Source: Escherichia coli (GTDB lineage Bacteria > Pseudomonadota > Gammaproteobacteria > Enterobacterales > Enterobacteriaceae). From it: a stretch of DNA of 64,000 bases. The position numbers were made by a program, and so were the translations under genes. Under the pieces are notes generated by a model that ran no database searches, was not told where the DNA came from, and saw nothing but the letters and a program-made list of their open reading frames with translations. The first letter of the stretch is position 1. Each line of letters opens with the position of its first letter. The DNA is taken from NCBI RefSeq assembly GCF_030013205.1, contig NZ_CP122648.1; one strand, given 5' to 3'. Below, in pieces: positions 1,933 through 36,589 of the stretch.

Positions 1933-1959
1933 ACAAAAAACGCGCCCGAAGGTGCGTTG
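1933..1959. repeat. attL copy of 27-bp direct repeat (acaaaaaacgcgcccgaaggTgcgttg)
   Basis: Identical to 36563..36589 apart from one mismatch (T vs C); lies next to the integrase gene and abuts the pheL -35 region. Confidence 0.65.
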
Positions 1960-2045: not shown

Positions 2046-3035
2046 TTATGTGGATGAAATGTGGATGCCTCCTTTTAATGGATTAAGTGAAATTGCATCC
2101 TGGAGGAAATCAGGAGCGAGGTGCGCATAGGTCATAGTTTGCTGGATCGTGGCGTGCCCCATAATTCGCTGGAGCGTAAGTATATTTCCTCCATTAATCA
2201 TAAAGTGAGCAGCAAAGGTATGGCGTAGAACATGTACAGCCTGTCCTTTTGGTAGGTCTGGCTTAACACTGCGAAGCACCTTGCGATATTCTTCATAATT
2301 GACGTCAAACAAAAGGCCGGATTTCTTTGTTTTGATCTCACTAACAACTTCATCAGAGACAGGAATAATTCGAACTTTTCCGTTTTTAGTTTTGTTAAAC
2401 GTCACGCGATTATTGATGATGTGTTCCGCGCGCAGATTTTTCGCTTCTCCCCATCTCGCCCCAGTACTGAGACAAAGTAGCGTAATCCGCCGAGCATCAC
2501 CGCTTACTGCATCCAGCAATTTGGCGATTTCTTCCGTAGTGAGGTACGTCATTTCGGGTGATTTTCGTTTCAAAGAGGGGAGGGCGCGGAGTGGATTTTC
2601 TCCGTGAAATTCTCCGGCATTTGCCAGGAGTGTAAACATTCCTCCGAGATCCGACTCATCACGCCGAACAGTAGACTCTTTTACTCCCAAGGATAAACGG
2701 GAGCTTCGATAAGCTGCCATGAAACGAGCATTAATCTGGCTAACCCTTGGATCATTCATTTCTTTGATGATTTTTTTCAATCTGGTTAGAACGCCGTTAG
2801 CATATGGCTTATTGCGTCCACCCAATTCCCACCATAACGGAAGCAGATCTGAGAGATGACGTTGCTCTGTTGGCTTTTCAAGCCATTCCTTATCGTGCAT
2901 GTGGCTGAGAACATAGCGCTCAAAGGCCACTGCATCTGCCTTTTTCTTAAAAATCCGCTGGATCCGACGTCCACTTCGGCCACGCGGTCTAACATCCACT
3001 TTATACCGTCCACCATCGAGTGCTTTAATTGCCAT
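2046..3035 (-). CDS. int: Phage integrase (tyrosine recombinase, P2 Int family)
   Basis: MAIKALDGGRYKVDVRPRGR... and C-terminal ...VLRHTFAAHFMINGGNILTLQRIMGHATIQQTMTYAHLAPDFLQDAISLNPL closely resemble P2 Int; start chosen at the Met with a GGAGGG RBS (the ORF could extend to 3068). Confidence 0.85.
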   Translation of the reverse strand: MAIKALDGGRYKVDVRPRGRSGRRIQRIFKKKADAVAFERYVLSHMHDKEWLEKPTEQRHLSDLLPLWWELGGRNKPYANGVLTRLKKIIKEMNDPRVSQINARFMAAYRSSRLSLGVKESTVRRDESDLGGMFTLLANAGEFHGENPLRALPSLKRKSPEMTYLTTEEIAKLLDAVSGDARRITLLCLSTGARWGEAKNLRAEHIINNRVTFNKTKNGKVRIIPVSDEVVSEIKTKKSGLLFDVNYEEYRKVLRSVKPDLPKGQAVHVLRHTFAAHFMINGGNILTLQRIMGHATIQQTMTYAHLAPDFLQDAISLNPLKGGIHISST

Positions 3036-3101
3036 TGGCAAGCCCTCCGGTGAAACGAGGAAAGACATTTCCAGTTTGTAAAACGTAAGAATAATAAAGG
3101 G

Positions 3102-6292: not shown

Positions 6293-6682
6293 ATGATTGA
6301 CGCTCATGACTTCACAAGATGGGTGCGCACACAGGACACCCGTCTGGCTCCCGTTCTTCAGGGATTATTTGATCTCTACATCCGTGGTCGTGACAACAGA
6401 GCACGCACCACAAAACCGGAGAATGCAGACACCCTTTATTTCACAGTAGACGACTGCTACCGCGTGGACTTCACACCACACGGGCTGGCGTTGCACTGCC
6501 TGACACCACACGGCGAATCACTACTGGCGTATTACGACTCCCCGGCCTCCGTATTTGCGGCAATGCTGGCGCATCGCACTGCTGGCGGGTGTGCCTCGCT
6601 GAGTGAATACACCGCTGAATTTGACCGCCTTTCCGCCATCTTCTCGCAGGAGTGGCAGCGCGTGACGGGATACCAGCCATGA
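6293..6682 (+). CDS. Hypothetical protein immediately upstream of gpA
   Basis: 129-aa ORF overlapping the gpA start. Confidence 0.4.
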   Translation: MIDAHDFTRWVRTQDTRLAPVLQGLFDLYIRGRDNRARTTKPENADTLYFTVDDCYRVDFTPHGLALHCLTPHGESLLAYYDSPASVFAAMLAHRTAGGCASLSEYTAEFDRLSAIFSQEWQRVTGYQP

Positions 6683-9504
6683 GTGAGTTTGCATGGAGCT
6701 GGAATGAACCACGACCAGCCATTGATCCGGCCAGATTTACGGAGCGCAGGCAGGAAACTGAAACCGACTTGCAACGCGCCATCCGTTACTACCTTGAGGC
6801 GGACAAAAAGGCCCGGGAAGAACAGGAAGCGAAGGAGGAAGCCTTTTTCGCACAATCCGCCATGGGTAAAAAACTCATGGCATCCCTTGAGGAAGCCGGA
6901 CAGCGTGAAAAGCTGGCACAGAGCATCATCAGTAAGCGCCGGGCAACAGAACAAGACCCAGTAGCCCGTGCCTTTGCCACACTAAAGGCACTACCTGTTT
7001 ATCTGCGTGAACCACTGAGCCGCCACCTCTCTTTCCTGCGCAAAAAACAGGAAGCCGATCGCCAGAAAGGCAAAAAGAGCTGGCAGGCGGAACGCTATGC
7101 ACGCGGAACCCTGCGCAAAATATTCGAACGTCTAGATCGCACTGACGGACGCTGGCTGACACCGGGTTATCGCTCCCTTGCCGGGCGCGAACGCCTGGAC
7201 GATTTGCTTTACCTGCCGCAGCTCAACAAGCACCAGATACAGACGCTGGCCACCATGACCGCGGCGATGTTCAGCAGCACCTTCGAAACACTCTGCGATG
7301 GCTTTGGTGCCAGAGATGGCGAGCTGACCATGGATGTAATGTTGAAGGCTTACCGGATGCTGGCTCGTATCGCATTACGCCTGCACATCATGCCGCCACA
7401 TTACGAAGCCCTGAACAAGAGCGAACCGGATACGGAACTGCTGCCGGGCGCAATCCTTCGCCTGACCTGTGCGGACTGGTGGAAACGCAAACTGTGGCTG
7501 TTACGTTGCGAGTGGAGAGAAGAACAACTCCGCGCCGCCTGTCTGGTTTCCAGAAAAACATCACCCTATCTGAGCCAGGACGCGTTAAGCGAGTTTCGCG
7601 CACAGCGCGAGAAAACACGCGATTTCCTGAAAAGTTTCATGCTGGAAAATGAAGACGGGTTCACGATTGATCTCGAGACGGTGTATTACGCGGGAGTAAG
7701 TAACCCGGTTCACCGTAAGGCAGAAATGATGGCCACCATGAAGGGACTGGAACTTCTGGCCGAAGCCCGTGGCGACAGAGCGGTGTTTCTGACTGTCACC
7801 TGCCCGTCAAAATACCACGCAACAACGGAGAACGGTCATCCGAATCCCAAATGGAACGGGGCCACCATGCGCGACTCCAGCGATTACCTGGTTAACACGT
7901 TTTTTGCGGCGGTCCGCAAGAAACTGAACCGCGACGGCCTGCGCTGGTATGGCATCCGCACGGTGGAGCCTCACCATGACGGCACCGTGCACTGGCATAT
8001 GATGGTCTTTGCCCATCCGGAAGAAATCGACACCATTGTGTCCCACACCCGCGATATTGCCATTCAGGAAGATCGTCACGAGCTGGGCGATGATATTACT
8101 CCGCGCTTTAAGGCGGAGTATGTAGACGGCTCAAAAGGCACGCCAACCAGCTACATCGCCACCTACATCGGAAAGAACCTGGACAGCCGCGCCGTGGATG
8201 GCATCGACCCGAAAACAGGCAAACCACGCGTTGACCACGAAACCGGAAAATCAATGGCCGAGAGCGTGGAGCGCGCCATCGGCTGGGCGCGCCTTCACCG
8301 GGTCCGCCAGTTCCAGTTCTTTGGCATCCCATCCCGTCAGGTGTGGCGTGAACTGCGCCGCCTTGCCAGCCAGATGGCACGCAACCCGGAAGGCCCGCAA
8401 CGGCTGAAGGATGACGCAATGGACGCGGTTCTTGCTGCCGCTGATGCCGGATGTTTTGCCACCTACATTGAGAAACAGGGCGGCGTACTTGTTCCACGCA
8501 AAGACTACCTGATTCGCACCGCCTACGACCTCGCAGATGAGCTGAACGATTACGGCGAACAGAGCGTACAGATTTACGGGATCTGGTCACCACTCATCGG
8601 GGAATCCTCCCGTGTGTGCACGCACCCGGATAACTGGAAGCTGGTAAGACGTAAACCGGAAGCGGAAGACAGCACCCGCGAAAATGGTTTTGACCTTCAG
8701 GGCGGCCCTGCCGCCCCTTGGACTCGTGGCAATAACTGTCCCCGTGTACAGGAAGCAGGCAACAGCGGGACAGAACTGTCGGAAGAGCAACCAACACCGT
8801 GGCCGCAGATCCCTGACGGCGTTGATGTGGATGAATGGATGCGCTCACTGAAACGGCACGAACGCCGGGCGCTGATGCGTTCGCTGCGTGACAAACAGGC
8901 AAAAAACAGCAGTGATGAAATGCAGAGCTGGACACAGAGCCGCAAACAGCAGCGGCCTTTGCCTGATAACCACGAATTACTCGCTAAAGAATGGCGGGAG
9001 TCTGCCGAATCTCTCGGCCTGCATATCGGTGAACAGCAGATGCAGCACCTGTTACGGGGCGGCAGCCTGTACGTTGACGGCAGCATCATTGCACCGCAGG
9101 GATTTGAAATTGTACGCAAACCGGATACCCGCCCGGACAGCCGAATCACGCAGCTCTGGCAGCGCCTGAGCCGTAATCATGGCGTAAGCAGCACGGAGAT
9201 CCGCCATAACCCGGTCGCCAGCTATCTGACACAGCTGGGGGCATCAGACCCTGAAGCCGCCGCACGCCTGGCATCCACACTTCAGCAGGACCAGAACACC
9301 ATGAAAACCCCCGTTACCGTGCTTTCTGACATGCTGCGCGCCATCCGTGACGCAGAGCACGCACAGAGAATCAGTGAAACAACTGAACGCGCCCGCCGCA
9401 AAGCAGACCTGCTGCGGGGTGGCCTGATCAGTGGAAACAAAAAACAGACAGAAACGGGATTCACAAATCCCGTAAATGAGCAAAAAACGTGCCGCGATGT
9501 ATGA
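6679..9504 (+). CDS. Replication initiation protein gpA (rolling-circle HUH endonuclease, P2 A family)
   Basis: 941-aa ORF starting MSEFAWSWNEP...; contains ...DGTVHWHMMVFAHPEE (HUH-type motif); position after the early operon as in P2. Confidence 0.8.
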   Translation: MSEFAWSWNEPRPAIDPARFTERRQETETDLQRAIRYYLEADKKAREEQEAKEEAFFAQSAMGKKLMASLEEAGQREKLAQSIISKRRATEQDPVARAFATLKALPVYLREPLSRHLSFLRKKQEADRQKGKKSWQAERYARGTLRKIFERLDRTDGRWLTPGYRSLAGRERLDDLLYLPQLNKHQIQTLATMTAAMFSSTFETLCDGFGARDGELTMDVMLKAYRMLARIALRLHIMPPHYEALNKSEPDTELLPGAILRLTCADWWKRKLWLLRCEWREEQLRAACLVSRKTSPYLSQDALSEFRAQREKTRDFLKSFMLENEDGFTIDLETVYYAGVSNPVHRKAEMMATMKGLELLAEARGDRAVFLTVTCPSKYHATTENGHPNPKWNGATMRDSSDYLVNTFFAAVRKKLNRDGLRWYGIRTVEPHHDGTVHWHMMVFAHPEEIDTIVSHTRDIAIQEDRHELGDDITPRFKAEYVDGSKGTPTSYIATYIGKNLDSRAVDGIDPKTGKPRVDHETGKSMAESVERAIGWARLHRVRQFQFFGIPSRQVWRELRRLASQMARNPEGPQRLKDDAMDAVLAAADAGCFATYIEKQGGVLVPRKDYLIRTAYDLADELNDYGEQSVQIYGIWSPLIGESSRVCTHPDNWKLVRRKPEAEDSTRENGFDLQGGPAAPWTRGNNCPRVQEAGNSGTELSEEQPTPWPQIPDGVDVDEWMRSLKRHERRALMRSLRDKQAKNSSDEMQSWTQSRKQQRPLPDNHELLAKEWRESAESLGLHIGEQQMQHLLRGGSLYVDGSIIAPQGFEIVRKPDTRPDSRITQLWQRLSRNHGVSSTEIRHNPVASYLTQLGASDPEAAARLASTLQQDQNTMKTPVTVLSDMLRAIRDAEHAQRISETTERARRKADLLRGGLISGNKKQTETGFTNPVNEQKTCRDV

Positions 9505-9552
9505 AGCGCGCACAAAACAGGCAAAAGCGGGATTCCAGAATCCCGTAAACGG
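9452..9552. repeat. Two ~25-bp palindromic repeats (cgggattcNNNNaatcccgtaaa) 73 bp apart, spanning the gpA 3' end and the parM upstream region
   Basis: aaacgggattcacaaatcccgtaaa at 9452-9476 and aaagcgggattccagaatcccgtaaacgg at 9524-9552. Confidence 0.5.
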
Positions 9553-9580
9553 TTAATTAATCAACATAAGGAAAATCGAC

Positions 9581-10540
9581 ATGAAAATTTGTATCGACGA
9601 CGGCTCCACCAACATCAAGCTGGCATGGACTGAGAACGGCGAACGCCGCAACGCCATCAGCCCGAACAGCTTCAAGTCGGAATGGTCTGCGCCGTTCGGT
9701 GGCTCGCAGCCTGCGAACTACATGCTTGATGGCGTGCGCTATGGTTTTGATCCGGTCAGCGATCGCTTTGTCCAGACGACCGACACGCAATACCAGTACA
9801 GCGATGTGAATGTCATTGCCATTCATCACGCGCTGGTCAAATCAGGCATCACGCCTCAGGAGGTGGATGTGGTTGTCACCCTGCCACTGAGCGAGTATTT
9901 CGACACAAACGCACAGCCAGACATGGCCAACATCAACCGCAAAAAAGCGAACGTTATGCGCCCGGTGGAGTACCAGAACGGCGAAGCATTCACTATCCGT
10001 AACGTGCGGGTTATGCCTGAATCCATTCCGGCTGGTTTTAAGGCACTGGCTGACATGAGTCCGTTTGAATCCCTGCTGATTGTGGATTTGGGCGGAACCA
10101 CGCTGGATGTGGCAAAGGTTCAGGGGCAACTGGCAGGTATCAGCCAGGTGTTTTGCGATCCACACGTAGGCGTTTCTCTGATGGCTGATGCCGTGCTGTC
10201 GGTGATGGCCACTAACGGTATGCGTACCAGTCACCACATCGCCAATACCATTATTGAGCACCGTCACGATGAAGCCTGGCTACGCCAGCACATTCACAAT
10301 GACGCGCATTACAACAGCCTGATGGCGGTTATTCGTGAAAAGGAGGAAACACTGAAACAACGCGTGATCCGCGCGCTGGCGGGTTTTTCGGGTTACGGGC
10401 GGGTGATGGTTGTAGGTGGAGGAGCGGAGATTGTGGCACCCGCTATCCGCGAAGCCTGCGGAGTTAATGCGACTTTCATCGCGGACGGGGTGCCACAGTT
10501 TGCTCTGGTTAATGGGCTGTACGCAATGGACAAGGAGTAA
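9581..10540 (+). CDS. parM: ParM/StbA-like actin-family segregation ATPase
   Basis: MKICIDDGSTNIKLAW...ISPNSF...YSDVNVIAIHHAL...VMPESIPAG...IVDLGGTTLD...VGGGAEI...ALVNGLYAM tracks plasmid R1 ParM along its whole length (recalled alignment). Confidence 0.8.
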   Translation: MKICIDDGSTNIKLAWTENGERRNAISPNSFKSEWSAPFGGSQPANYMLDGVRYGFDPVSDRFVQTTDTQYQYSDVNVIAIHHALVKSGITPQEVDVVVTLPLSEYFDTNAQPDMANINRKKANVMRPVEYQNGEAFTIRNVRVMPESIPAGFKALADMSPFESLLIVDLGGTTLDVAKVQGQLAGISQVFCDPHVGVSLMADAVLSVMATNGMRTSHHIANTIIEHRHDEAWLRQHIHNDAHYNSLMAVIREKEETLKQRVIRALAGFSGYGRVMVVGGGAEIVAPAIREACGVNATFIADGVPQFALVNGLYAMDKE

Positions 10541-10544
10541 ATCA

Positions 10545-10859
10545 ATGACGACACCAACCAGACGGATAAGTTTCTATCTGAAGCCCGCCGTCGTCAAGAG
10601 CGAACGGGAGGCGTGCAGTTACCTCGACAGCCTGCCAGCCTCCGAACGCAGCCGCGCACAACGCGCGGCTTTTCTGGCCGGACTGGCTCTTATAAAACGC
10701 ATCCCCGCGTTGGCGTATTCGCTGGCAGAATGGTCAGAAGACGAAATAAGGATGCCACCGCTACCAGTACAGCCTGAAAAACCGGCGAAACCAGCAGCAG
10801 ACAGCGCCCCCCATATGCAGCAGGTGAAGAAGAATATTCAGGCGTTTTTTCCGAAGTGA
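10545..10859 (+). CDS. parR: ParR-like centromere-binding adaptor (putative)
   Basis: RRISFYLKPAVVKSEREACSYLDSLPASERSRAQRAAFLAGLALIKR resembles the R1 ParR N-terminal DNA-binding region; immediately downstream of parM. Confidence 0.6.
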   Translation: MTTPTRRISFYLKPAVVKSEREACSYLDSLPASERSRAQRAAFLAGLALIKRIPALAYSLAEWSEDEIRMPPLPVQPEKPAKPAADSAPHMQQVKKNIQAFFPK

Positions 10860-10873
10860 AAACAGGAGTAACT

Positions 10874-11161
10874 ATGTCCACCATTACCAAAGAATGGTTA
10901 CAACGTAAAATCACAGAGTTTAAATCGTGGCGCGAAGACATCCCGTTCGGTCTTGATGAAGACGATCACAATATGTTAATCGCACTGGAAATCGCACTTG
11001 CATCACTGGAAGCAGAGCCAGTGGCATGGATGCACGCAAATAATCCTATTGGAATACCGGCGATAACAAGAAGTAAAGATGTTGCAGACAGCTGGCGCTC
11101 TAAGGGATGGAATGTATTGCCTCTTTATTCACTGACCCGCTCCATCAATTTATGCCATTAA
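10874..11161 (+). CDS. Hypothetical protein (AT-rich moron gene)
   Basis: ATG at 10874 with an AGGAG RBS; 95 aa; lower GC than flanking phage genes. Confidence 0.4.
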   Translation: MSTITKEWLQRKITEFKSWREDIPFGLDEDDHNMLIALEIALASLEAEPVAWMHANNPIGIPAITRSKDVADSWRSKGWNVLPLYSLTRSINLCH

Positions 11162-11172
11162 TGGAAGTAATC

Positions 11173-11532
11173 ATGATGAAAGATAATTCCGGAAGCCAGC
11201 GTGCATCAGTTGCAGTTATGGTAATGATTAAATTTGTGAAACAGTACACCGGAAAGCCAATCTCGCTCCGGCAATTAAGCAAAGAAACCGTTTCACTGTC
11301 ATATCTGGAGCAAATATTCAGATATTTACGGGAAAGTAGCCTGGTAAAAGCCACACGCGGCCCGGGTGGTGGATATATCCCAACAAAAGAAAATTACAGT
11401 GTTGGTGATATTGTCCGGGCAATGAAATGTTCCGGATTATATACACAGCACGTTATTCTGGCTGCACTGGATAATATTTCTTTAACCAGCCTGCAGGAAG
11501 ACACAAATTATCAGTTGTCTGCCATTGAATAA
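11173..11532 (+). CDS. Rrf2-family (IscR/NsrR-like) transcriptional regulator
   Basis: ...SLSYLEQIFRYLRESSLVKATRGPGGGY... is the Rrf2 HTH signature; AT-rich; start uncertain (11161 or 11173). Confidence 0.6.
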   Translation: MMKDNSGSQRASVAVMVMIKFVKQYTGKPISLRQLSKETVSLSYLEQIFRYLRESSLVKATRGPGGGYIPTKENYSVGDIVRAMKCSGLYTQHVILAALDNISLTSLQEDTNYQLSAIE

Positions 11533-11535
11533 GAA

Positions 11536-11580
11536 AACCCGGAACGGGTGCGCAAATTCTTTGTGCGCCCGTTCCGGGTT
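11536..11580. terminator. Strong bidirectional hairpin terminator (21-bp stem)
   Basis: aacccggaacgggtgcgcaaa-ttc-tttgtgcgcccgttccgggtt between the convergent Rrf2 gene and the zinc-finger gene. Confidence 0.6.
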
Positions 11581-11600
11581 GGACAAGCGAAGCGCGTCAG

Positions 11601-11858
11601 CTATCCGGCCTGCAACAACTCCAGAGCCATTTGTTTTTCTTCCGGACGCATCCGCTCAATCAACAGCTTTAACACACCATTCTCCAGCCCGCTGGGCACC
11701 AGTGTGTGCGAGTAGGTCAGATTCATCACCCAGGTATGTCCGCACTCGAGACGGGTGCAACGGTAATACACATCAGCAAACTGATCGGTTTTCCAGGCTG
11801 TTTTCTCAATCACTGCATGTGCACCGCAGCAATGACATCGCGCTTTCTGTCTGCGCAT
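11601..11858 (-). CDS. Ogr/Delta-family zinc-finger late transcription activator (putative)
   Basis: C-x-CC ... C-x4-C spacing (RCHCCG...YYRCTRLECGHTW) parallels P2 Ogr; start at the Met with a GGGAGGTGG RBS. Confidence 0.5.
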   Translation of the reverse strand: MRRQKARCHCCGAHAVIEKTAWKTDQFADVYYRCTRLECGHTWVMNLTYSHTLVPSGLENGVLKLLIERMRPEEKQMALELLQAG

Positions 11859-11923
11859 TTTCCACCTCCCGGAACAGCGTTTTACTGCCACCGATTTTAC
11901 CCGCTCTTTCCCCATACCGCACA

Positions 11924-12958
11924 TCACTCCGTGGATTCGTTAAATTCAAGAATAAATTCCACCTGCCCCAGCCGTCTGATATCCGGATCGCTGTTGATCC
12001 CCTCCATAATCAGACGGCGCATCGGAATAACCTCATCTCTGTAATATGCCTCGCGGGATTTCAGTGGGTCACCAAGCCCGGCCGTATTTGCGGGAATGAT
12101 GCCGGCAAGTCCGGGTGGAAAACGGTGCGCAACGAGCTGATCCTGGGCACTGATGGTTTTTATATTCAGGAACTCATCTTTTGTGCCTGAATCCCCGATA
12201 GGGATCACCTTAACGCCTTCTTTGTCTCCGCCCGGTATATTGATAAACATGGATTTAAAATTGCCCGCCCCTTTTGACGCCTCTATCTTTTTACGGAATT
12301 CCGCCTCGAGCTCGGGATCCATGTCCGGGTCAGTGGAATACAGGATATAACCAAGATGTGCGCCGTTCTTGTAATACTTGCGGCGAAAGCGGGTGGCATC
12401 CACATTCAGCATGGCGGATTCCATCCCGTGAATATAATCCGGGACACCGTAAACCTGCTGTTGCGGGTCATAAATGGCCACGAACACCACTTCGCCTGGC
12501 GGGTAAACGAGATCTTCCAGTGCTGCCTGCACAATCACCGTGCCACCCTCGTTGTTACGCCGCAGGTACAGAGAAGGTAACGTATGCAGGCGCACCACGC
12601 GACCGAAGCCATTGCGCACTTTAAGCAACCCCATATCCCCGAATATCAGCAGATTGGTTACTGCTGCCGCCATGGCGGCGTGTGTCATACCACCACCACC
12701 CCGAAAACCCTGCATGATCATATTGACGCGCGCACGCAATACCGCGCCGTGATACGGTGCGATATTGGACAACATGGCGAGATCCATGCGCTCAATTGGC
12801 GGCGTGTACCAGCCGTTATAGCCATCCCAGAGCGAGCCGTAATAACAGCCCCATGCAGCGACCGGTTCCGGGTCACCAAATTCAATAAACGTCATTTTGC
12901 TGGCTGTTTTTTTTGCCACGCCATCGTGTAACACGGGGTATTTTTTCTTTTTACTCAT
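11924..12958 (-). CDS. Portal (capsid vertex) protein gpQ
   Basis: 344-aa ORF directly downstream of and co-oriented with the terminase ATPase, as for P2 Q. Confidence 0.8.
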   Translation of the reverse strand: MSKKKKYPVLHDGVAKKTASKMTFIEFGDPEPVAAWGCYYGSLWDGYNGWYTPPIERMDLAMLSNIAPYHGAVLRARVNMIMQGFRGGGGMTHAAMAAAVTNLLIFGDMGLLKVRNGFGRVVRLHTLPSLYLRRNNEGGTVIVQAALEDLVYPPGEVVFVAIYDPQQQVYGVPDYIHGMESAMLNVDATRFRRKYYKNGAHLGYILYSTDPDMDPELEAEFRKKIEASKGAGNFKSMFINIPGGDKEGVKVIPIGDSGTKDEFLNIKTISAQDQLVAHRFPPGLAGIIPANTAGLGDPLKSREAYYRDEVIPMRRLIMEGINSDPDIRRLGQVEFILEFNESTE

Positions 12959-14738
12959 CTGACAGGATCCATGTTGATTTGCGCTTGTGCTTATAGTTCA
13001 GGGGTTCATTACTTGCGGCATGAGCTATGGCAAAGAAGATGTCAGCGTGCCCGGTTTCTTCGCTACGTTCGGCGGTGAAAGTGACTTTATTGCCGCTGTT
13101 GGTGGATTCCTGACGAATGGCCAGGAACGATGCCGGAATATCCGTGGCTTCTTCATCCCACTCAATACGGTTGGCGTAAATCAGATCCAGCATCTTCATC
13201 ACCAGGCGGTTTTTGGATTCCACGCTGTAATGAATGGCCACTGTTTCACGGCGGGCAAATCCCTGAACCAGCTCAAAGACACCGTAGCCAAGACCGGTGA
13301 CGTCAATGCCGATAAATGTCATGTTATAGCGCGCCTTAATGCTGCGGATACGCTCTGCCATAAACTGGAATGACATGCTGCGCCAGTGGTGTTTTTCCAG
13401 CACGCGGAATCGTTCTGCCGCAACCAGCGGCGGTGCCAGCACAACAAATGTGGCGTTATCGCCGGAGCGCGCAGGGTCAAAGCCGCCCCACACTTCACGG
13501 TTACCAAATGGCATGGGCTCTTCCGGGTGAAAATCCTCCCACGTACTGACATCAACACCACAACGCACAAGATCATCGAATTTAAAGACGCTCTCTTTGT
13601 CATCCACAAACACACACATAAACAGCATATTGAACGCTGTTTCGTTGTATCGCTCGCGCAGCTCGTTGATGTCAGCAAGGTTAAAGCCGCCGGCAATGGC
13701 ATCTTCCAGCGTAACCACATAGCGCCACTGACCATCCGGACATTCACGCCCACCATCGCGCAGCTCATCAAAGGACGGAAACTCAACCCCTTTTCGTTTC
13801 GGATCGCCTTTGCGCCATTCATCGCCAGACCAGAACGGGTAACCCTGGTGTGTTTTGGATGACGGCGTGGAGAAATAGGTAATGCGCCAGTGTTTATGGG
13901 TGGCCATCCCTGATGCCACTTCATTGAGACGGCGAAAACCGGGGATCCACAGGTATTCATCAATATACAGGTGGCCGCTGTTTGACTGCGCTGTGTTACT
14001 GTTGGTCGCCAGAAAATACAGTTCAGCCAGATTACTTAACTTAACCGGATTGCCTTTAATGGGAATGCCAAACTCTGTTTGTGCAATTTTTACAATATAA
14101 GTACGGAACACTTCGGCCTGACGTTTTGATGCCGATAAAAATATCTGTGTGTCGCCGGTTAATACTGCATCTTCAAATGCCTCAAACGCGAAGTAATACG
14201 TCGCCCCAATCTGGCGGGATTTAAGCAGGTTGCGTACACGGCGGAATTTGTTTTCACGCAGATGCAACTGATAAGCAAACAACTTTTTCGTAAACGGCTC
14301 AAAACTTTCAGCAGTCAGTCCGGAAACGTCATTAGTTTTGCGGGGACGCTCTTTCTTACCTGCACCTTTTTCTCCGCGTTCTTCTTTTCCATAACGGCCA
14401 GGCTGGGGGATGTCCACTCCCATTCGCGCAATCTCAGCCATTCGTTCTGTATGCTTGTTTCTGACCGACATCAGTTTGACGTGATGACCAATCAGGCGAT
14501 CAAGCTCATCGTGTTCTTCCTGGGTCTTATGGTCACGTTCCGCCAGTACAGCGAGACGCCGGGCGATAACATCCTCCACGCCTTCCGTATTGAGCTGCGT
14601 GTACCACTCAAACTTTGTCGCCCAGTAATAAACAATTCGCGGACTGTTCAGTCCGAGTTTCTTTTGTATTTCTTTTGGTGTGTGCCTTTTCAGATAGAGT
14701 GATTTTGCTGCGGCAATCACCTCATCAGAATACGCCAT
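12951..14738 (-). CDS. Terminase large (ATPase) subunit gpP
   Basis: 595-aa ORF; size, position and divergence from the O-N-M-L operon as in P2. Confidence 0.85.
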   Translation of the reverse strand: MAYSDEVIAAAKSLYLKRHTPKEIQKKLGLNSPRIVYYWATKFEWYTQLNTEGVEDVIARRLAVLAERDHKTQEEHDELDRLIGHHVKLMSVRNKHTERMAEIARMGVDIPQPGRYGKEERGEKGAGKKERPRKTNDVSGLTAESFEPFTKKLFAYQLHLRENKFRRVRNLLKSRQIGATYYFAFEAFEDAVLTGDTQIFLSASKRQAEVFRTYIVKIAQTEFGIPIKGNPVKLSNLAELYFLATNSNTAQSNSGHLYIDEYLWIPGFRRLNEVASGMATHKHWRITYFSTPSSKTHQGYPFWSGDEWRKGDPKRKGVEFPSFDELRDGGRECPDGQWRYVVTLEDAIAGGFNLADINELRERYNETAFNMLFMCVFVDDKESVFKFDDLVRCGVDVSTWEDFHPEEPMPFGNREVWGGFDPARSGDNATFVVLAPPLVAAERFRVLEKHHWRSMSFQFMAERIRSIKARYNMTFIGIDVTGLGYGVFELVQGFARRETVAIHYSVESKNRLVMKMLDLIYANRIEWDEEATDIPASFLAIRQESTNSGNKVTFTAERSEETGHADIFFAIAHAASNEPLNYKHKRKSTWILSDE

Positions 14739-14824
14739 AAATAAACCTCACCTGCTGATGCAATTTTAATTTATGCATTTTCAGCAAAGGCTTTTTTAAA
14801 AACGAATATCGCTTTTCGGTATTT

Positions 14825-14848
14825 TTCGGATATATGCGCATATCCGAA
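14825..14848. promoter_or_regulatory. Perfect 9-bp inverted repeat (TTCGGATAT-N6-ATATCCGAA) in the divergent late promoter region between gpP and gpO
   Basis: Read directly in the 194-bp P/O intergenic region; no P2-type TGT-N12-ACA Ogr site seen there. Confidence 0.35.
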
Positions 14849-14932
14849 AGTACCGGAAATTAATCAGATGACGACGTTTTCATTTCTCCGTTAAATAACG
14901 CCAGTTTAATTTTTATCAGCGGATTAATTCAG

Positions 14933-15829
14933 ATGACGAAGCAGAAAACAGACTGGGTTGTGGTTGCCACATCAGGCCCCACCATCGACGGTCGGGAAAT
15001 TGATCCGAAGTGGCTGACGGATGCCGCCGAGGTTTACAACCCGGACGAGCGAGCCGCCATGCTCTGGCCATATCACGCCGATTCCGGATGGCGTGCCTTC
15101 ACCAATAACTACGGCATTGTTGATGCCCTGAAAGTCGAAAAATTTGGTGAAAAGGTGCAGCTTAAAGCACGCCTGATCCCAAATCGCTTCCTGATTGAAG
15201 CCAATAAGGCCGGGCAGAAACTTTTTACCTCCATTGAAGTGCGGGAAAACTATCTGGGCACGGGCAAATTCTTTGTGTCCGGTATCGCCGTGACGGATAC
15301 CCCAGCCAGCATTAACACTACACGCCTGCAGTTTTCCATGGGGGAAGCCATCCATATGGGCAACGCAGAGGCGCTGAATTTTACGCTGCAGCCTGATGAT
15401 GAGCAGGCCAAGCGCAACTTCTTCTCCCGCTTCTTCTCATCTGACAATCACCAACAGGGAATTTACCAAGCCATGAACGAAGAACAGTTCAGCCAGTTAA
15501 TGGGTGCCATTAATAAAACCAGTGAACGCCTGGACGAGCTGGAAAAAAACGTCGCGCAGTTCAGCGCGAAGGATGCCCCGAAAGATACCGGTGATAACAA
15601 GCCGGAAGGCAGCACCGGCGATCAGGGGCAGGACAACGCAGAACAGAACAACAAGGACGACAAAACCTTCACGCTGACCACCGAGCAGGGCGAAAAGCTG
15701 TTCTCCACAGTGAACGCCATCGCGGAGAAGGTTACCAGTATGGAAACCGCATTTGCTGAACTCAGCAAGGACGCCACGAAGCTGCCGGGCAACAATCCGG
15801 CCGGTGGCGAAACTTTTAACCTGGTGTAA
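14933..15829 (+). CDS. Capsid scaffolding protein gpO
   Basis: ...FFVSGIAVTDTPASINTTRLQF... resembles the P2 gpO core; first gene of the O-N-M-L operon. Confidence 0.8.
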   Translation: MTKQKTDWVVVATSGPTIDGREIDPKWLTDAAEVYNPDERAAMLWPYHADSGWRAFTNNYGIVDALKVEKFGEKVQLKARLIPNRFLIEANKAGQKLFTSIEVRENYLGTGKFFVSGIAVTDTPASINTTRLQFSMGEAIHMGNAEALNFTLQPDDEQAKRNFFSRFFSSDNHQQGIYQAMNEEQFSQLMGAINKTSERLDELEKNVAQFSAKDAPKDTGDNKPEGSTGDQGQDNAEQNNKDDKTFTLTTEQGEKLFSTVNAIAEKVTSMETAFAELSKDATKLPGNNPAGGETFNLV

Positions 15830-15843
15830 CCGGAGAGAACACA

Positions 15844-16857
15844 ATGAACATGACACCAGAAGCACAAAAGCTGGTTAATCAGTACATCAGCGAACTGCAA
15901 AAAACATTCAGCGACTGCGGAAAATCAAGCGATCGTTTCTTTTCGCTGACCGAACCACGCAGTATTGCTCTGCGTAAAGCCCTGCTGGAAAGCACGGAGT
16001 TTCTGAGTTTCATCACCTGCATGGACGTTCCGCACCCGCAGGGGCAGGTCGTCACCGTGGGCGAATCCACGCTGCGCACCGGTCGCGTGAAAAGCGGTCG
16101 TTTCGCTAAAGGTTCGGGCATCAAAGGCAACGAATTTAAACTCGTTGAAACTGATTCCTGCTGCGTGATCACCTGGGAACAACTCGCCATCTGGGCGAAT
16201 GCCGGTAGCCCGCAGGAATTTTTCAACCTGATGAACTCCGCCGCCGTCACCAACTTTGCGCTGGATATGCTGCGCATTGGCTTTAACGGTAAAACAGCAG
16301 CGGAAAACTCTGACCCGGAAAGTCACCCGAACGGCGAAGACGTCAACATCGGCTGGCATGAAATCGCCAAAAAGTGGGGAGAACAGCCCGGCAATACCTC
16401 CCGTATTCTGACGGACGCCGTTACCCTGGGCGAAGGCGGTGATTATGTCAGCCTTGATGCCATGGCCTCAGACCTGATCCGCACTTATATCCCGGCGCAA
16501 TATCACAACGATCCTCGCCTTACTGTACTGGTTGGCGCAGACCTTGTGGCTGCTGAAGAACTACGCCTCTACAACAAAGAGGACAAGCCCACCGAAAAAG
16601 TGGCCGCACAGTTGCTGACGAAGAACATCGCAGGCCGCAAGGCCATCATTCCGCCGTTTATGCCGGGTAAGCGTATGGTGGTGACCATGCTGCCAAACCT
16701 GCAGATCCTGACGCTGAAGGGTTCCCGCCGTCGTAAAGCGGAAGATGTGGGCGATCGCAAACAGTTCGAAAACTCATACTGGCGTTACGAGGGGTACGCC
16801 CTGGGCGATCCGGATTTATATGCTGCCGTGGATGAGTCTGCGGTCACCATCGCCTGA
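15844..16857 (+). CDS. Major capsid protein gpN
   Basis: ...LGEGGDYVSLDAMASD... matches the P2 gpN GKGGDYASLDAL region; 337 aa. Confidence 0.85.
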   Translation: MNMTPEAQKLVNQYISELQKTFSDCGKSSDRFFSLTEPRSIALRKALLESTEFLSFITCMDVPHPQGQVVTVGESTLRTGRVKSGRFAKGSGIKGNEFKLVETDSCCVITWEQLAIWANAGSPQEFFNLMNSAAVTNFALDMLRIGFNGKTAAENSDPESHPNGEDVNIGWHEIAKKWGEQPGNTSRILTDAVTLGEGGDYVSLDAMASDLIRTYIPAQYHNDPRLTVLVGADLVAAEELRLYNKEDKPTEKVAAQLLTKNIAGRKAIIPPFMPGKRMVVTMLPNLQILTLKGSRRRKAEDVGDRKQFENSYWRYEGYALGDPDLYAAVDESAVTIA

Positions 16858-16874
16858 TAAACGGAGCGCACGGT

Positions 16875-17585
16875 ATGCCAACGCCAATGCAGCGACAACG
16901 TGCCCGACAGATGGATGAGCGCCGTGCGGCGCTCATGACCAGAACGGACGGGCGCGCCGTCAGCACAGAGAGTCAGCACATTAAGCTGCTGGCACTGGAT
17001 AACGATGTCAGACAACTGCACAACATGGAGCTGCTGTCTGACAAGCTGGAATTCAAACGGAACACGCTGCTGCCCCGCTGGCTGCCACACGCACAGGCTT
17101 ATCTGGAGGGGGAACGCGTCTATCAGAATCCCATTCTGGTGTACTGCATCATCTGGCTGTTCGATACCGGGCAGTTTGAGATGGCGCTGCGGTGGGCTGA
17201 CATTGCCATTGAGCAGGGACAAAAGACGCCGGAGAACTTCAAAAGCGAGCTGCCAACGTTTGTGGCCCATTTCATTCTTGAATGGGCAGAAACCGAAGCT
17301 GAACGCGGGAACAGTATCGCGCCATATTTTCAGCAGGTGTTTGAAAAAATCCGCGACAAATGGCGCGTGAATGAACGCCTTGCTGCCCGCTACTGGCGCT
17401 TTGCAGGCATCCTGCTGCTGCGCGGCGATGACGGCAAGCCACAGGCCAGCGCAATTAACGATCCGGAGAGACTGCAACAGGCCGACCAGTGCCTGGAACG
17501 GGCTGCCTGGCTGCATCCCAAAATTCAGGTGAAAACCCTGCGCCAGCGCATTGCCGCAAGACTGCGCGCGTTGCAGGGCACGTAA
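16875..17585 (+). CDS. Terminase small (endonuclease) subunit gpM
   Basis: Position and recalled similarity to P2 gpM. Confidence 0.75.
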   Translation: MPTPMQRQRARQMDERRAALMTRTDGRAVSTESQHIKLLALDNDVRQLHNMELLSDKLEFKRNTLLPRWLPHAQAYLEGERVYQNPILVYCIIWLFDTGQFEMALRWADIAIEQGQKTPENFKSELPTFVAHFILEWAETEAERGNSIAPYFQQVFEKIRDKWRVNERLAARYWRFAGILLLRGDDGKPQASAINDPERLQQADQCLERAAWLHPKIQVKTLRQRIAARLRALQGT

Positions 17586-17683
17586 ACGACTCCCAACAAC
17601 CGGGCGGGCGCGGTGGAGGTGTGCCGGCAAAAGCCATCAGCACACTGCGGAAACCGGTCAGCCCGCCTTTCCCCGGAGTGAGC

Positions 17684-18178
17684 ATGTTTGACGGGAAAAG
17701 CATTCACTATCAGCAGGCCATTATTCAGAACGATGGATTCTGGCCGGATATTGATGCCGGCGATTTTGAAAAGAGCCGCAGTATCCCCGCCGTCACGTCA
17801 CACGAAACGGTGCTGACGGCTCTGCTTTGCGCAGTAACAGAGATTAACACTGAACTGGCTGCACGCCGTGAATACTGGCAGGAACAGGGCCACACCCGAG
17901 CCGCAGATATTCCGGGTTACACCGTGTTGCAACCAGAGCCACGCAATACGGATGCACAACCTGAACGGATGCAGAACCACATTACAGCACTGTACACCAA
18001 GGCTGTGTATGCACGCGCAAAGGCCGATCTTTTGCCGGAATCTGCCAGCGTGGGGCGGCGCGAGGCGCAGCCATCATCAGAAGCCAGCGAGAGCCGCCGG
18101 TCGTTGCTGGCTGAAGCGGCCATGGCGGTGCGGGCGCTGCTGGGCCGACCGCGTGCATCCATCGCACTGATTGATTAA
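17684..18178 (+). CDS. Head completion/stabilisation protein gpL
   Basis: MFDGKSIHYQQAIIQNDGFWPDIDAGDFEK... resembles P2 gpL (FFFPDIDPKRV...); internal ATG chosen within ORF 17489..18178. Confidence 0.7.
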   Translation: MFDGKSIHYQQAIIQNDGFWPDIDAGDFEKSRSIPAVTSHETVLTALLCAVTEINTELAARREYWQEQGHTRAADIPGYTVLQPEPRNTDAQPERMQNHITALYTKAVYARAKADLLPESASVGRREAQPSSEASESRRSLLAEAAMAVRALLGRPRASIALID

Positions 18179-18187
18179 GGAAATGGT

Positions 18188-19380: not shown

Positions 19381-19398
19381 CAAAATCAGGAGACAACC

Positions 19399-20999: not shown

Positions 21000-21002
21000 A
21001 CC

Positions 21003-21299: not shown

Positions 21300-21304
21300 C
21301 AGCA

Positions 21305-21412
21305 ATGCTGTCCCGCAGGGAACAAAAAGCTGCTGCCATTGCCTGGAAAATTATCCGGGCACTGTGGTACTGGCTGCGCAAACCTCAGCAACCTCATAAG
21401 GAGCAAAAATGA
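21305..21412 (+). CDS. Small lysis-associated protein (35 aa, putative)
   Basis: MLSRREQKAAAIAWKIIRALWYWLRKPQQPHKEQK; ATGA overlap with the endolysin start; below the ORF-track cutoff. Confidence 0.3.
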   Translation: MLSRREQKAAAIAWKIIRALWYWLRKPQQPHKEQK

Positions 21413-21750: not shown

Positions 21751-21814
21751 TTTTACGCTTAATAAGCCTTCCTGCAGGCTTATTAAGCCCTCTTATTCTT
21801 GACTTTAAAAGGAA

Positions 21815-35322: not shown

Positions 35323-35347
35323 TGCCTAGTGGGCGAATCAGAATGAC

Positions 35348-36562: not shown

Positions 36563-36589
36563 ACAAAAAACGCGCCCGAAGGCGCGTTG
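36563..36589. repeat. attR copy of the 27-bp direct repeat; doubles as the raiA intrinsic terminator
   Basis: acaaaaaacgcgcccgaaggcgcgttg; hairpin aacgcgcc-cgaa-ggcgcgtt plus T-run on the raiA strand. Confidence 0.65.

What the first reader, a model, noticed from the sequence alone, without database searches (positions are those of the whole stretch)
9452..11600. Plasmid-type ParM/ParR partition cassette plus AT-rich moron in the gpA-to-Q variable interval of an integrated P2-like prophage
Between replication gene A and the portal gene, where P2 carries its accessory genes (orf91, tin, old), this prophage carries a ParM actin-like ATPase that tracks plasmid R1 ParM along its length (DDGSTNIK, ISPNSF, YSDVNV, VMPESIPAG, IDLGGTTLD, GGGAE, LVNG) and a ParR-like adaptor, preceded by paired palindromic repeats. 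It then carries a lower-GC pair consisting of an unknown 95-aa protein and an Rrf2-family regulator. A type II plasmid segrosome inside a chromosomally integrating P2-type phage is unexpected. It suggests an extrachromosomal (phage-plasmid-like) phase, active positioning of replicating or packaging DNA, or a repurposed system such as defence or superinfection exclusion. I do not know of a described P2-like phage with parMR.
Basis: partly seen in the sequence, partly recalled or inferred. Interest (0 to 1): 0.8.

Follow-up and report, generated by a model that had tools for sequence, protein, structure and literature searches.

The report
ParMR partition module in P2-like prophage
An integrated P2-like prophage really does carry a plasmid-type actin-like DNA-segregation pair (ParM/ParR), but about a quarter of E. 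coli genomes carry the same pair, earlier papers have noted it, and its role has never been tested.

Summary
Window 9581-10540 encodes a full-length ParM, 47% identical to plasmid R1 ParM with intact ATP-binding motifs. Window 10545-10859 encodes a ParR-type adaptor. Two perfect 18-bp palindromes lie 73 bp apart just upstream. A low-GC pair follows (an Eaa-like 95-aa protein and a short Rrf2 regulator). All of this lies between gpA and the portal gene of a prophage integrated between pheA and raiA.

The novelty claim fails. The same parMR region is 94% identical in phage P88 and its relatives, where it is annotated as ParM or a partition protein. It occurs in 1302 of 5426 complete E. coli genomes. 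Rousset et al. 2022 and Pfeifer et al. 2020 both remark on it, and Rousset's Table S5A lists this exact five-gene arrangement.

My additions:
- parMR is not hotspot cargo. It is a conserved module directly after gpA in P2-like prophages of five further genera, and these ParMs form one clade in an unbootstrapped tree.
- ParM is under strong purifying selection.
- The putative centromere is two dyads, not an iteron array.

The most likely role, which is inferred, is positioning or segregating excised, replicating phage circles. Only the Rrf2 pair is variable cargo.

The parts
1933..1952 (.). attL core. It is a 20-bp direct repeat shared with 36563-36582, next to the integrase gene (2046-3068, minus strand).
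   Evidence: The exact 20-mer ACAAAAAACGCGCCCGAAGG is found at both prophage ends. Integrase matches PHROG 1. The flanking host genes are pheA and raiA.
6652..9504 (+). gpA-type replication initiator (nicking endonuclease), 950 aa from the first GTG. PGAP starts it at 6682. Its last ~50 nt contain palindrome 1.
   Evidence: PHROG 91 'nicking at origin of replication', E=5e-277. Annotated as 'replication endonuclease' in identical genomes. 86% identical to P88 gpA.
9438..9476 (.). Repeat copy 1, containing the dyad CGGGATTCACAAATCCCG (9455-9472). Putative ParR binding site, centromere or operator half 1.
   Evidence: The arms are conserved and the 4-nt centre varies in 74 related loci; spacing is 73 bp in 72 of those 74. 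Equivalent paired dyads 72-74 bp apart occur in the Plesiomonas prophage and the Hafnia prophage (located by eye).
9511..9549 (.). Repeat copy 2, containing the dyad CGGGATTCCAGAATCCCG (9528-9545). Putative ParR site 2. It overlaps the -35 region of a possible parM promoter.
   Evidence: The position relative to the conserved ATTAATCAA box was read from the sequences.
9556..9564 (+). ATTAATCAA box, 17 nt before the parM ATG. It is conserved in the E. coli, Plesiomonas and Hafnia lineages and is a possible -10 element.
   Evidence: Read directly. The consensus promoter scan did not call it, so this assignment is an inference.
9581..10540 (+). parM, an actin-like segregation ATPase of 319 aa.
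   Evidence: PDB R1 ParM, E=7e-93. 47% identity. Pfam StbA_N plus the ParM C-terminal domain. PHROG 691. dN/dS is 0.03-0.065 against P88-type alleles.
10545..10859 (+). parR, a ribbon-helix-helix (RHH) adaptor of 104 aa with a conserved C-terminal tail (...VKKNIQAFFPK).
   Evidence: Pfam PF10784, E=1e-23. pB171 ParR 2jd3, E=0.01. PHROG 2515. The tail motif is shared with plasmid ParRs. Nucleotide homology to P88-type phages ends inside parR, at about 10704-10742.
10874..11161 (+). orf95, hotspot cargo. Small protein homologous to the N-terminal module of Eaa and DUF551 prophage proteins; function unknown.
   Evidence: No Pfam match. PHROG 660 and 60, both of unknown function. Homologues are named Eaa or DUF551. 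No PADLOC match.
11173..11532 (+). Short Rrf2-family winged-HTH regulator (119 aa) without the Cys cluster. Hotspot cargo.
   Evidence: Pfam Rrf2, 6e-13. IscR and CymR structures match residues 12-85 only. NCBIfam rrf2 score is below its cut-off. PHROG 24072.
11536..11580 (.). Hairpin with a 21-bp perfect stem between the convergent rrf2 and ogr genes. It is a likely terminator, with a U-tract only on the minus strand.
   Evidence: RNA fold: -39.7 kcal/mol, z = -6.7 on the plus strand; -32.2 kcal/mol on the minus strand.
11601..11858 (-). Ogr/Delta-type zinc-finger late-gene activator. The start was placed at the internal ATG.
   Evidence: PHROG 603, E=4e-31. PGAP names it 'ogr/Delta-like zinc finger'. 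The gene occupies the same position in the Plesiomonas and Hafnia prophages.
11924..12958 (-). Portal protein gpQ, which marks the right border of the gpA-Q interval.
   Evidence: ORF. tblastn matches phage portal genes. 75% identical to the Plesiomonas prophage portal and 30% to the P88 portal.
36563..36582 (.). attR core, the second copy of the 20-bp repeat, just downstream of raiA.

Best explanation
This is a genuine type II (ParM/ParR, actin-like) DNA-segregation module. It is a long-standing, conserved part of the early/replication region of one branch of P2-like phages, the branch that includes P88 and its relatives. It is not a recently captured moron.

Proposed mechanism, all inferred rather than shown:
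1. ParR dimers bind the two dyads CGGGATT-N4-AATCCCG, which lie 73 bp apart across the end of gpA and the parM leader. This probably also represses a weak parM promoter.
2. The conserved C-terminal tail of ParR captures the ends of ATP-ParM filaments.
3. Filament growth pushes apart, or positions, copies of the phage genome.

No terminator was detected between parMR and gpA, so parMR is probably made when the early operon is on. The substrate would then be the excised or infecting circular phage DNA while it replicates. The closest precedent is the AlpAC actin system of the Corynebacterium prophage CGP3, which is needed for efficient phage replication after induction. The same machinery could also keep not-yet-integrated circles in both daughter cells.

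The two genes downstream, orf95 and the Rrf2-like regulator, are ordinary rare cargo of the P2 gpA-Q hotspot and are unrelated to partition.
For: Identity of the proteins:
- ParM matches R1 ParM at E=7e-93 and 47% identity over its full length. The phosphate-1 (DDGSTN), MPES (R1 E148 equivalent), phosphate-2 (DLGGTT, R1 D170 equivalent) and GGGAE motifs are all intact.
- ParR belongs to PF10784 and has an RHH N-terminus.
- The ParR C-terminal motif (K/R)xN[AI]xxLFP is conserved with an IncL/M plasmid ParR and with R1 ParR. The R1 ParR sequence was recalled from memory.

Functional constraint:
- parM dN/dS is 0.03-0.065 against P88-type alleles.
- The parM ORF is intact in at least 72 of 80 IMG/VR loci, and only one has a premature stop.

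Conserved module rather than cargo:
- The order gpA, parM, parR, variable genes, portal is kept in P2-like prophages of Plesiomonas, Hafnia, Serratia and Enterobacter. ParM identity there is 63, 62, 58 and 54%.
- Across these lineages ParM is more conserved than gpA (32-56%) and, in three of the four, than the portal (34-53%; 75% in Plesiomonas).
- All phage ParMs form one clade, apart from plasmid and ICE ParMs, in a neighbour-joining tree. The nearest plasmid ParMs are only about 52% identical.

Binding sites:
- The two perfect dyads are unique in the window.
- The arms are invariant, the centres vary, and the spacing is fixed at 73 bp in 72 of 74 loci.
- Analogous paired sites with lineage-specific sequence occur in the other genera.

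Timing:
- No plus-strand terminator was found between gpA and parM, and there is no strong independent promoter.

Precedent:
- AlpAC of prophage CGP3 (PMC4446434).
Against: - Nothing here shows expression timing, DNA binding or filament formation. All mechanistic steps rest on homology and position.
- The upstream region lacks the tandem iteron array typical of type II centromeres. No repeat periodicity was found (z<2.3), whereas an IncL/M plasmid gave z=4.5 and phage-plasmid D6 gave z=4.2. Two sites may act only as an operator.
- A segregation machine has no obvious use within a single short lytic cycle.
- Whether parMR is silent in lysogens is unknown.
- One complete P88-like genome is deposited as a 34.5-kb circular 'plasmid'. 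That fits the rival episome idea equally well.
Confidence: 0.55

Rival explanations
1. Facultative plasmid prophage. ParMR lets these phages persist as low-copy episomes, so that they behave as phage-plasmids. This could apply before integration, after excision, or in hosts lacking attB. This is the published speculation.
For: - Partition systems are a hallmark of low-copy plasmids.
- Rousset et al. and Pfeifer et al. propose exactly this.
- One complete P88-like genome is deposited as a 34,461-bp circular plasmid joined at attP (NZ_CP148288.1).
- Phage-plasmid D6 uses a ParM that is 48% identical.
- A P2-like phage, KS14, is a proven plasmid prophage (PMC3091744).
Against: - 1439 of 1441 occurrences in complete E. 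coli genomes are chromosomal.
- The copy in the window is integrated, with att repeats and an intact integrase ORF.
- Of the six 98-99% ParM matches in the plasmid collection, five are replicons of 228 kb to 1.4 Mb and only one is a phage-sized (34.5-kb) circle.
- That circle is 99.96% identical to a chromosomally integrated twin. Its differences look like long-read sequencing errors, so it may simply be an induced circle.
- KS14 achieves its plasmid state with RepB and ParA and has no integrase, whereas these phages keep Int and the rolling-circle initiator gpA.
Confidence: 0.2
2. Function in the lysogen. ParR, with or without ParM, is expressed from its own autoregulated promoter in the repressed prophage. 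It would act against related incoming phages or plasmids, through centromere or operator incompatibility or exclusion. Alternatively it would act on the host chromosome locus carrying the dyads.
For: - The cassette lies next to the P2 anti-phage hotspot.
- Many genomes carry 2-3 related prophages.
- ParR occurs as several divergent alleles (52-98% identity) beside a 99% conserved ParM.
- A conserved -10-like box follows dyad 2.
Against: - There is no PADLOC match.
- The divergent part of ParR is the linker and C-terminal half, not the DNA-reading N-terminus, and the dyad arms do not co-vary with ParR alleles within E. coli.
- Strong conservation of a complete, catalytically intact ParM is not needed for an operator-based exclusion mechanism.
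Confidence: 0.12
3. ParR is mainly a transcriptional regulator of the early operon's distal end and the cargo genes. ParM would be a decaying or moonlighting passenger, so the cassette has no segregation role.
For: - There are only two binding sites rather than an iteron array.
- The cargo genes are tightly coupled downstream and probably co-transcribed, with a 14-nt gap between parR and orf95.
Against: - parM dN/dS is 0.03-0.065, and full-length ParM is kept in prophage lineages from several genera for what appears to be a long time.
- The ATPase motifs are intact.
- The ParM-binding tail of ParR is conserved.
Confidence: 0.06

Closest known systems
ParMRC (type II) partition system of plasmid R1, and the related pB171 and IncL/M systems
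   Same: - The gene order is sites, then parM, then parR.
- ParM is 47% identical to R1 ParM over its full length with all nucleotide-binding motifs.
- ParR is an RHH protein of Pfam PF10784 with the conserved C-terminal tail.
- The binding sites lie upstream and overlap a likely promoter. They form two blocks about 73 bp apart, the same block spacing seen in the IncL/M plasmid.
   Different: - It sits on a chromosomally integrating phage, directly downstream of the rolling-circle initiator gpA, and not on a theta-replicating low-copy plasmid.
- The putative centromere is two 18-bp dyads without tandem iterons.
- The phage ParMs form a separate clade that is at most about 52% identical to plasmid ParMs.
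The parM/parR genes of Escherichia phage P88 and other Xuanwuvirus members (520873, P88_4B11, Citrobacter phiSM, 569R5, Chuche)
   Same: - gpA is 86% identical, ParM 98-99% identical, and the dyads and gene order match.
- The genes are annotated as ParM or partition protein in those records.
   Different: - ParR is a different allele, only 53-57% identical to P88 ParR.
- The cargo differs.
- The late gene module is not P88-like: the portal is 30% identical, and no isolated phage matches 11600-24000 at the nucleotide level.
AlpC/AlpA actin-like system of Corynebacterium glutamicum prophage CGP3 (Donovan et al. 2015, PMC4446434)
   Same: An integrated prophage encodes an actin-like protein and a co-transcribed DNA-binding adaptor whose site lies in the operon's own upstream region. 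In CGP3 the system was shown to link circular phage DNA to filaments and to be needed for efficient phage replication after induction.
   Different: - Homology between AlpC/AlpA and this ParM/ParR was not tested here, and the host phylum and phage type differ.
- The functions were demonstrated experimentally for CGP3 but not for any P2-like phage.
Phage-plasmids with partition systems: D6 and P1-like phages (ParM or ParAB), and Burkholderia P2-like phage KS14
   Same: - D6 carries a ParM (48% identical) plus ParR, and its record notes similarity to the 'P88 StbA protein'.
- KS14 shows that a P2-like virion module can belong to a plasmid prophage.
   Different: - Those elements are found as autonomous replicons.
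- KS14 lacks an integrase and has a plasmid RepB initiator; these features were not examined for D6.
- The present element has an integrase and att sites, and it is chromosomal in 1439 of 1441 cases.
P2 gpA-gpQ hotspot of accessory and anti-phage genes (old and tin in P2; Rousset et al. 2022)
   Same: - The location is the same.
- The orf95 + Rrf2 pair behaves as hotspot cargo: it has low GC and occurs in only 36 of 5426 genomes. The interval from the end of parM to the portal varies from 1.3 to 4.6 kb across relatives.
   Different: - parMR itself is not variable cargo.
- The cargo pair matches no known defence family.

Membership tests
Type II (ParMRC) partition system | An actin-fold ParM ATPase with intact nucleotide-binding motifs | tested here: met
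   R1 ParM (PDB 1mwk) matches at E=7e-93 over residues 2-316 with 47% identity. The DDGSTN, MPES, DLGGTT and GGGAE motifs are conserved. Pfam finds StbA_N and the ParM C-terminal domain.
Type II (ParMRC) partition system | A small ribbon-helix-helix ParR adaptor encoded immediately downstream of parM | tested here: met
   There is a 4-nt gap after parM. Pfam PF10784 matches at E=1e-23. The N-terminus aligns to pB171 ParR (2jd3) at E=0.01.
Type II (ParMRC) partition system | A ParR C-terminal tail that docks onto ParM | tested here: inconclusive
   The tail motif (K/R)xN[AI]xxLFP, with an invariant Asn, is conserved with an IncL/M plasmid ParR, D6 ParR and R1 ParR (the R1 sequence was recalled from memory). 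Binding itself cannot be tested with these tools.
Type II (ParMRC) partition system | A parC centromere, meaning an array of tandem iterons upstream of parM that includes the promoter | tested here: not met
   Only two 18-bp dyads 73 bp apart are present. No iteron periodicity was found (best z=2.2), whereas the plasmid controls gave z=4.5 (IncL/M) and z=4.2 (D6). The sites are nonetheless upstream, paired and conserved.
Type II (ParMRC) partition system | It stabilises the inheritance of a low-copy autonomous replicon | not testable with these tools
   A plasmid-loss assay is needed. In sequence data the host element is integrated in 1439 of 1441 places.
P2-like phage (Peduoviridae) prophage | The P2-type gene set: Int, C/Cox switch, gpA, Ogr, Q-P divergent from O-N-M-L, and a contractile tail | tested here: met
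   PHROG matches cover integrase, gpA, Ogr, terminase, scaffold, capsid and sheath. Cox and the repressor are annotated in the identical region of K_EC180. att repeats are present.
Genus Xuanwuvirus (P88-like) | Genome-wide nucleotide similarity to P88. The ICTV genus criterion of about 70% over the full length is from my own knowledge. | tested here: not met
   The end of gpA, parM and the 5' part of parR are 94% identical at the nucleotide level (gpA protein 86%). However, 11600-24000 has no megablast match in any P88-like phage, and the portal is only 30% identical. The prophage is therefore a mosaic.
Phage-plasmid | The prophage is maintained as an autonomous replicon | tested here: not met
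   The copy in the window is integrated between pheA and raiA with 20-bp att repeats. 1439 of 1441 places in complete genomes are chromosomal. The one circular record is ambiguous.
Phage-plasmid | A plasmid-type replication initiator or copy-number control | not tested
   Only gpA was examined, and it is a rolling-circle nicking initiator (PHROG 91). The rest of the early region was not screened systematically.
P2 hotspot anti-phage cargo | It is variable between otherwise related phages and matches a known or candidate defence family | tested here: not met
   parMR is conserved, not variable. The orf95 + Rrf2 pair is variable (36 of 5426 genomes), but none of the four proteins matches PADLOC.

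The most novel reading that the evidence does not exclude
The ParMR-bearing branch of P2-like phages, found in about a quarter of E. coli genomes and in several other Enterobacterales, uses an actin-like spindle with a minimal two-dyad centromere on its own excised genome. This would either give these integrating phages a heritable episomal (phage-plasmid-like) phase or organise their replicating and packaging circles in space. It would be the first demonstrated cytoskeletal function in the P2 family, and a centromere architecture unlike the iteron arrays of plasmid ParMRC systems.
Probability: 0.3. Interest if true: 0.6.

Novelty: already known. Interest (0 to 1): 0.33.

Why it matters
About 24% of complete E. 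coli genomes carry this cassette inside an integrating prophage. It is under strong purifying selection, and across the prophage lineages compared it is better conserved than the phage's own replication initiator. Even so, no experiment has addressed what it does.

If it segregates or positions phage circles, it would extend actin-like DNA transport from plasmids and one actinobacterial prophage to a major family of enterobacterial phages. It would also clarify whether P88-like phages have a hidden episomal phase. That bears on prophage stability, transduction and the classification of phage-plasmids.

As a scan result, however, it is a rediscovery. The presence of the cassette, its frequency and the plasmid-maintenance idea are all in the literature, and this exact five-gene arrangement is already tabulated.

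Tried and rejected
- NCBIfam gave only sub-threshold ParM hits: PRK13917 scored 20.5 bits against a cut-off of 417, and PRTRC_D scored 22.6. That model evidently represents another ParM family. The PDB, Pfam and PHROG searches settled the identity.
- PADLOC found nothing for any of the four proteins, so there is no support for a known defence system.
- Rfam, run at E<=1 on 9000-12200, found only a chance PYLIS_2 hit.
- The sigma-70 and terminator scan found no consensus promoter upstream of parM and no plus-strand terminator after gpA. It did flag the two dyads as terminator-like on the minus strand. I rejected that reading because the hairpin is not conserved in Plesiomonas or Hafnia, where the stem is only 3-4 bp, while the outer CGGG/CCCG arms are conserved. 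That pattern fits a protein-binding site.
- The search for an iteron array by autocorrelation was negative.
- A search for further dyad copies elsewhere in the window found none beyond chance.
- I tried to test whether the strain with the 34.5-kb circular 'plasmid' copy also has an integrated copy. Its chromosome is not in the collections. The apparent repressor truncation in that record coincides with indels at GATC sites and homopolymers, so I did not trust it.
- Seven full-text literature searches found no functional study of ParMR in any P2-like phage.
- Within E. coli the upstream alignment is too similar (95%) to be informative on its own, so I used diverged prophages from other genera instead.

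Full report
**What is in the sequence**

The interval 9452-11600 lies in a prophage of about 34.6 kb.
- The prophage is bounded by a 20-bp direct repeat, ACAAAAAACGCGCCCGAAGG, at 1933 and 36563.
- It lies between pheA and raiA, as shown by the annotation of an identical region in strain K_EC180 and the ORF map.
- It encodes a tyrosine integrase, a gpA-type replication endonuclease, an Ogr/Delta zinc-finger protein, portal, large terminase, scaffold, P2-type capsid and tail sheath.

**The two partition proteins**

ORF 9581-10540 (319 aa) is a full-length homologue of plasmid R1 ParM.
- phmmer against PDB sequences gives E=7.4e-93 over residues 2-316.
- BLASTP identity is 47%, with two gaps.
- Pfam finds StbA_N and the ParM C-terminal domain.
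- The residues aligned with R1 E148 (in MPES) and D170 (in DLGGTT) are conserved, as are the DDGSTN and GGGAE motifs. That these R1 residues are the catalytic ones is from my own knowledge.

ORF 10545-10859 (104 aa) belongs to Pfam Plasmid_stab_B, E=1e-23. Its N-terminus aligns with pB171 ParR. Its C-terminus ends in ...VKKNIQAFFPK. This shares the motif (K/R)xN[AI]xxLFP with ParRs of related prophages, an IncL/M plasmid, phage D6 and R1.

**The upstream repeats**

Two copies of a 39-nt repeat lie 73 bp apart, and each holds a perfect dyad.
- The dyads are CGGGATTcacaAATCCCG (9455-9472) and CGGGATTccagAATCCCG (9528-9545).
- They are the only perfect matches in the 64 kb window, against none in 100 shuffles.
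- The first dyad lies inside the last codons of gpA.
- In 74 related IMG/VR loci the arms GGGA...TCCC are constant and the 4-nt centre varies. The spacing is 73 bp in 72 of the 74.

**The downstream pair**

orf95 (10874-11161) and a 119-aa Rrf2-type winged-HTH protein (11173-11532) have GC of 0.44 and 0.42, against 0.55-0.56 for parMR.
- orf95 has no Pfam match. It is homologous to the N-terminal module of Eaa and DUF551 prophage proteins.
- The Rrf2-like protein matches IscR and CymR only over the DNA-binding domain and lacks the Cys cluster.
- Neither protein matches PADLOC.
- A hairpin with a 21-bp stem (11536-11580, -39.7 kcal/mol) separates the pair from the convergent ogr gene.

**The cassette is common and already described**

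- Megablast finds the gpA end, parM and the 5' part of parR at 93-95% identity in 14 phage records, including P88, 520873, P88_4B11, Citrobacter phiSM, 569R5 and Chuche. Many of these records annotate the genes as ParM or a partition protein.
- The region occurs in 1302 of 5426 complete E. coli genomes. Of 1441 places, 1439 are chromosomal.
- Rousset et al. [quoted passage not shown] Four of these are the accessions PGAP gives for the identical region in K_EC180; the ogr accession differs there.
- Pfeifer et al. flagged P88 as possibly having episomal and integrative states.
- Magaziner et al. listed the phiSM gene as a 'fitness' factor.
- The D6 genome record refers to the 'P88 StbA protein'.
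- Seven full-text searches found no functional study.

**What I can add: parMR is a core module, not cargo**

In all P88-like phages the order is gpA, parM, parR, variable genes, portal.
- Nucleotide homology to the window ends inside parR, at about 10704-10742.
- The distance from the end of parM to the portal ranges from 1.3 to 4.6 kb in 53 loci.
- The orf95 + Rrf2 cargo is in only 36 of 5426 genomes.

The same gpA-parM-parR-cargo-portal synteny exists in P2-like prophages of four more genera. ParM identity is 63% in Plesiomonas, 62% in Hafnia, 58% in Serratia and 54% in Enterobacter.
- Across these lineages gpA is only 32-56% identical and the portal 34-75%.
- So ParM is better conserved than gpA in all four lineages, and than the portal in all but Plesiomonas.

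In a neighbour-joining tree all these phage ParMs form one clade, separate from plasmid ParMs.
- The tree has no bootstrap support.
- The two chromosomal ParMs at about 50% identity that I checked are in an ICE (Dickeya) and an integrated plasmid (Mangrovibacter).
- The nearest plasmid ParMs are about 52% identical.

parM dN/dS against P88-type alleles is 0.03-0.065. This points to one old acquisition followed by long retention under selection.

**An atypical centromere**

Plasmid relatives show iteron periodicity upstream of parM: the IncL/M plasmid at lag 10 (z=4.5) and D6 at lag 11 (z=4.2). The phage regions show none (z<=2.3). Instead they carry paired sites.
- Plesiomonas has CGGGACAAC...CCCG twice, 72 bp apart.
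- Hafnia has GGGATT...AACCC and CGGGTT...AATCCC, 74 bp apart. I located these by eye.
- Serratia and Enterobacter have an inverted pair of GGGAAC..ATAGAAAAAT arms.
- A conserved ATTAATCAA box follows the second dyad, shortly before the ribosome-binding site, in three lineages. It may be a -10 element. If so, the second dyad sits over the -35 region, as in the autoregulated R1 promoter. Both the promoter assignment and the R1 comparison are inference or my own knowledge.

**Mechanism**

No plus-strand terminator was detected between gpA and parM, and no strong independent promoter either. parMR is therefore most simply part of the early operon, expressed when the phage genome is excised or newly injected and replicating.

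From my own knowledge, P2 replicates by gpA-initiated rolling circle to monomeric circles, and these circles are the packaging substrate.

My preferred reading is that ParR bound to the two dyads couples phage circles to ParM filaments, which separate or position them. The experimentally shown precedent is AlpAC of prophage CGP3. There an actin-like protein and an adaptor that binds the operon's upstream region are needed for efficient phage replication.

Identity and conservation are shown here. Binding, filament formation, timing and benefit are all inferred.

**The plasmid-state rival**

- One 34,461-bp circular 'plasmid' record, NZ_CP148288.1, is a complete P88-like genome joined at attP.
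- It is 99.96% identical to a prophage integrated next to pdxB in another strain from the same study.
- Its seven indels sit at GATC sites, homopolymers and a CT repeat. They look like long-read sequencing errors, and they include a 2-bp deletion that truncates the repressor.
- The chromosome of that strain is not available in the collections, so I cannot say whether this is a true episome or an induced circle.
- Against a regular plasmid lifestyle: the cassette is overwhelmingly chromosomal, Int and att are retained, and the P2-like phage that really is a plasmid prophage (KS14) has RepB and ParA and no integrase.

**Other points**

- The window prophage is a mosaic. Its early region is P88-like, but its late module is not. 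The portal is 30% identical to P88, 75% to the Plesiomonas prophage, and 53% to the best isolated phage. There is no nucleotide match to any isolated phage over 11600-24000.
- ParR occurs as several alleles (52-98% identity) next to an almost invariant ParM.

**Verdict**

The identification is correct. The novelty claim is refuted by databases and literature. The function is still untested. The new details here (conserved core module, single clade in an unbootstrapped tree, two-dyad site architecture) refine a known feature but do not make it a new kind of system.

Noticed in passing
window 11601-~34000: The prophage is a mosaic. The region from the gpA 3' end through parM into the 5' part of parR is 94% identical at the nucleotide level to P88-type phages. 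The late (virion) module is not P88-like. The portal is 30% identical to the P88 portal, 75% to a Plesiomonas prophage portal, and 53% to the best isolated phage (Yersinia vB_YenM_324; HP1 is similar). No isolated phage matches 11600-24000 at the nucleotide level.
   Followed up: partly
L003 (NZ_CP148288.1, whole record) and L099 (NZ_CP148378.1): A complete P88-like phage genome is deposited as a 34,461-bp circular 'plasmid' joined at attP. It is 99.96% identical to a prophage integrated near pdxB in another strain. Its indels lie at GATC sites, homopolymers and a CT repeat, which suggests sequencing errors. One of them truncates the C repressor by 23 aa. It is unclear whether this is a true episome.
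   Followed up: partly
window 10545-10859 (parR); loci L010-L089: ParR exists as several divergent alleles (52-57%, 63-66%, 83-84% and 97-98% identity to the window's) next to a ParM that is 98-100% conserved. Nucleotide homology to P88-type phages breaks inside parR at about 10704-10742, so the 3' half of parR is exchanged together with the cargo.
   Followed up: partly
window 9581-10540 versus 6652-9504 and 11924-12958, compared with L090, L091, L093 and L096: Across the diverged P2-like prophages, ParM (54-63% identity) is better conserved than the replication initiator gpA (32-56%) and, except in Plesiomonas, than the portal (34-75%).
   Followed up: yes
window 11536-11580: A hairpin with a perfect 21-bp stem (-39.7 kcal/mol, z=-6.7) lies between the convergent rrf2-like and ogr genes. 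Only the minus-strand version is followed by a U-tract. P2-type cos sites lie in this general area (my own knowledge), and cos was not located.
   Followed up: partly
L001 (NZ_CP062203.1 1228585-1249488): In strain K_EC180 the same prophage, at the same pheA-raiA site, has a frameshifted integrase and has lost everything from ogr to the tail-fibre genes. It still keeps 100% identical gpA, parMR and cargo.
   Followed up: no
window ~34750-36460 (positions transferred from the L001 annotation): The right end of the prophage carries a Hok/Gef-family toxin gene, a TM2-domain protein, and a Com regulator plus DNA methyltransferase pair (Mu mom-like regulation). This comes from the PGAP annotation of the identical region. 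Only the methyltransferase was confirmed here by PHROG.
   Followed up: no
L093 9450-10084 and L096 7411-8757: In other genera the cargo slot after parR holds recognisable toxin-antitoxin or defence-type genes: HicA/HicB in the Serratia prophage and a KAP-family NTPase in the Enterobacter prophage. This fits the hotspot starting after parMR.
   Followed up: no
window 9581-10540: The NCBIfam ParM equivalog PRK13917 scores only 20.5 bits against a cut-off of 417 for this protein, even though it is 47% identical to R1 ParM. That model evidently covers a different ParM family.
   Followed up: no
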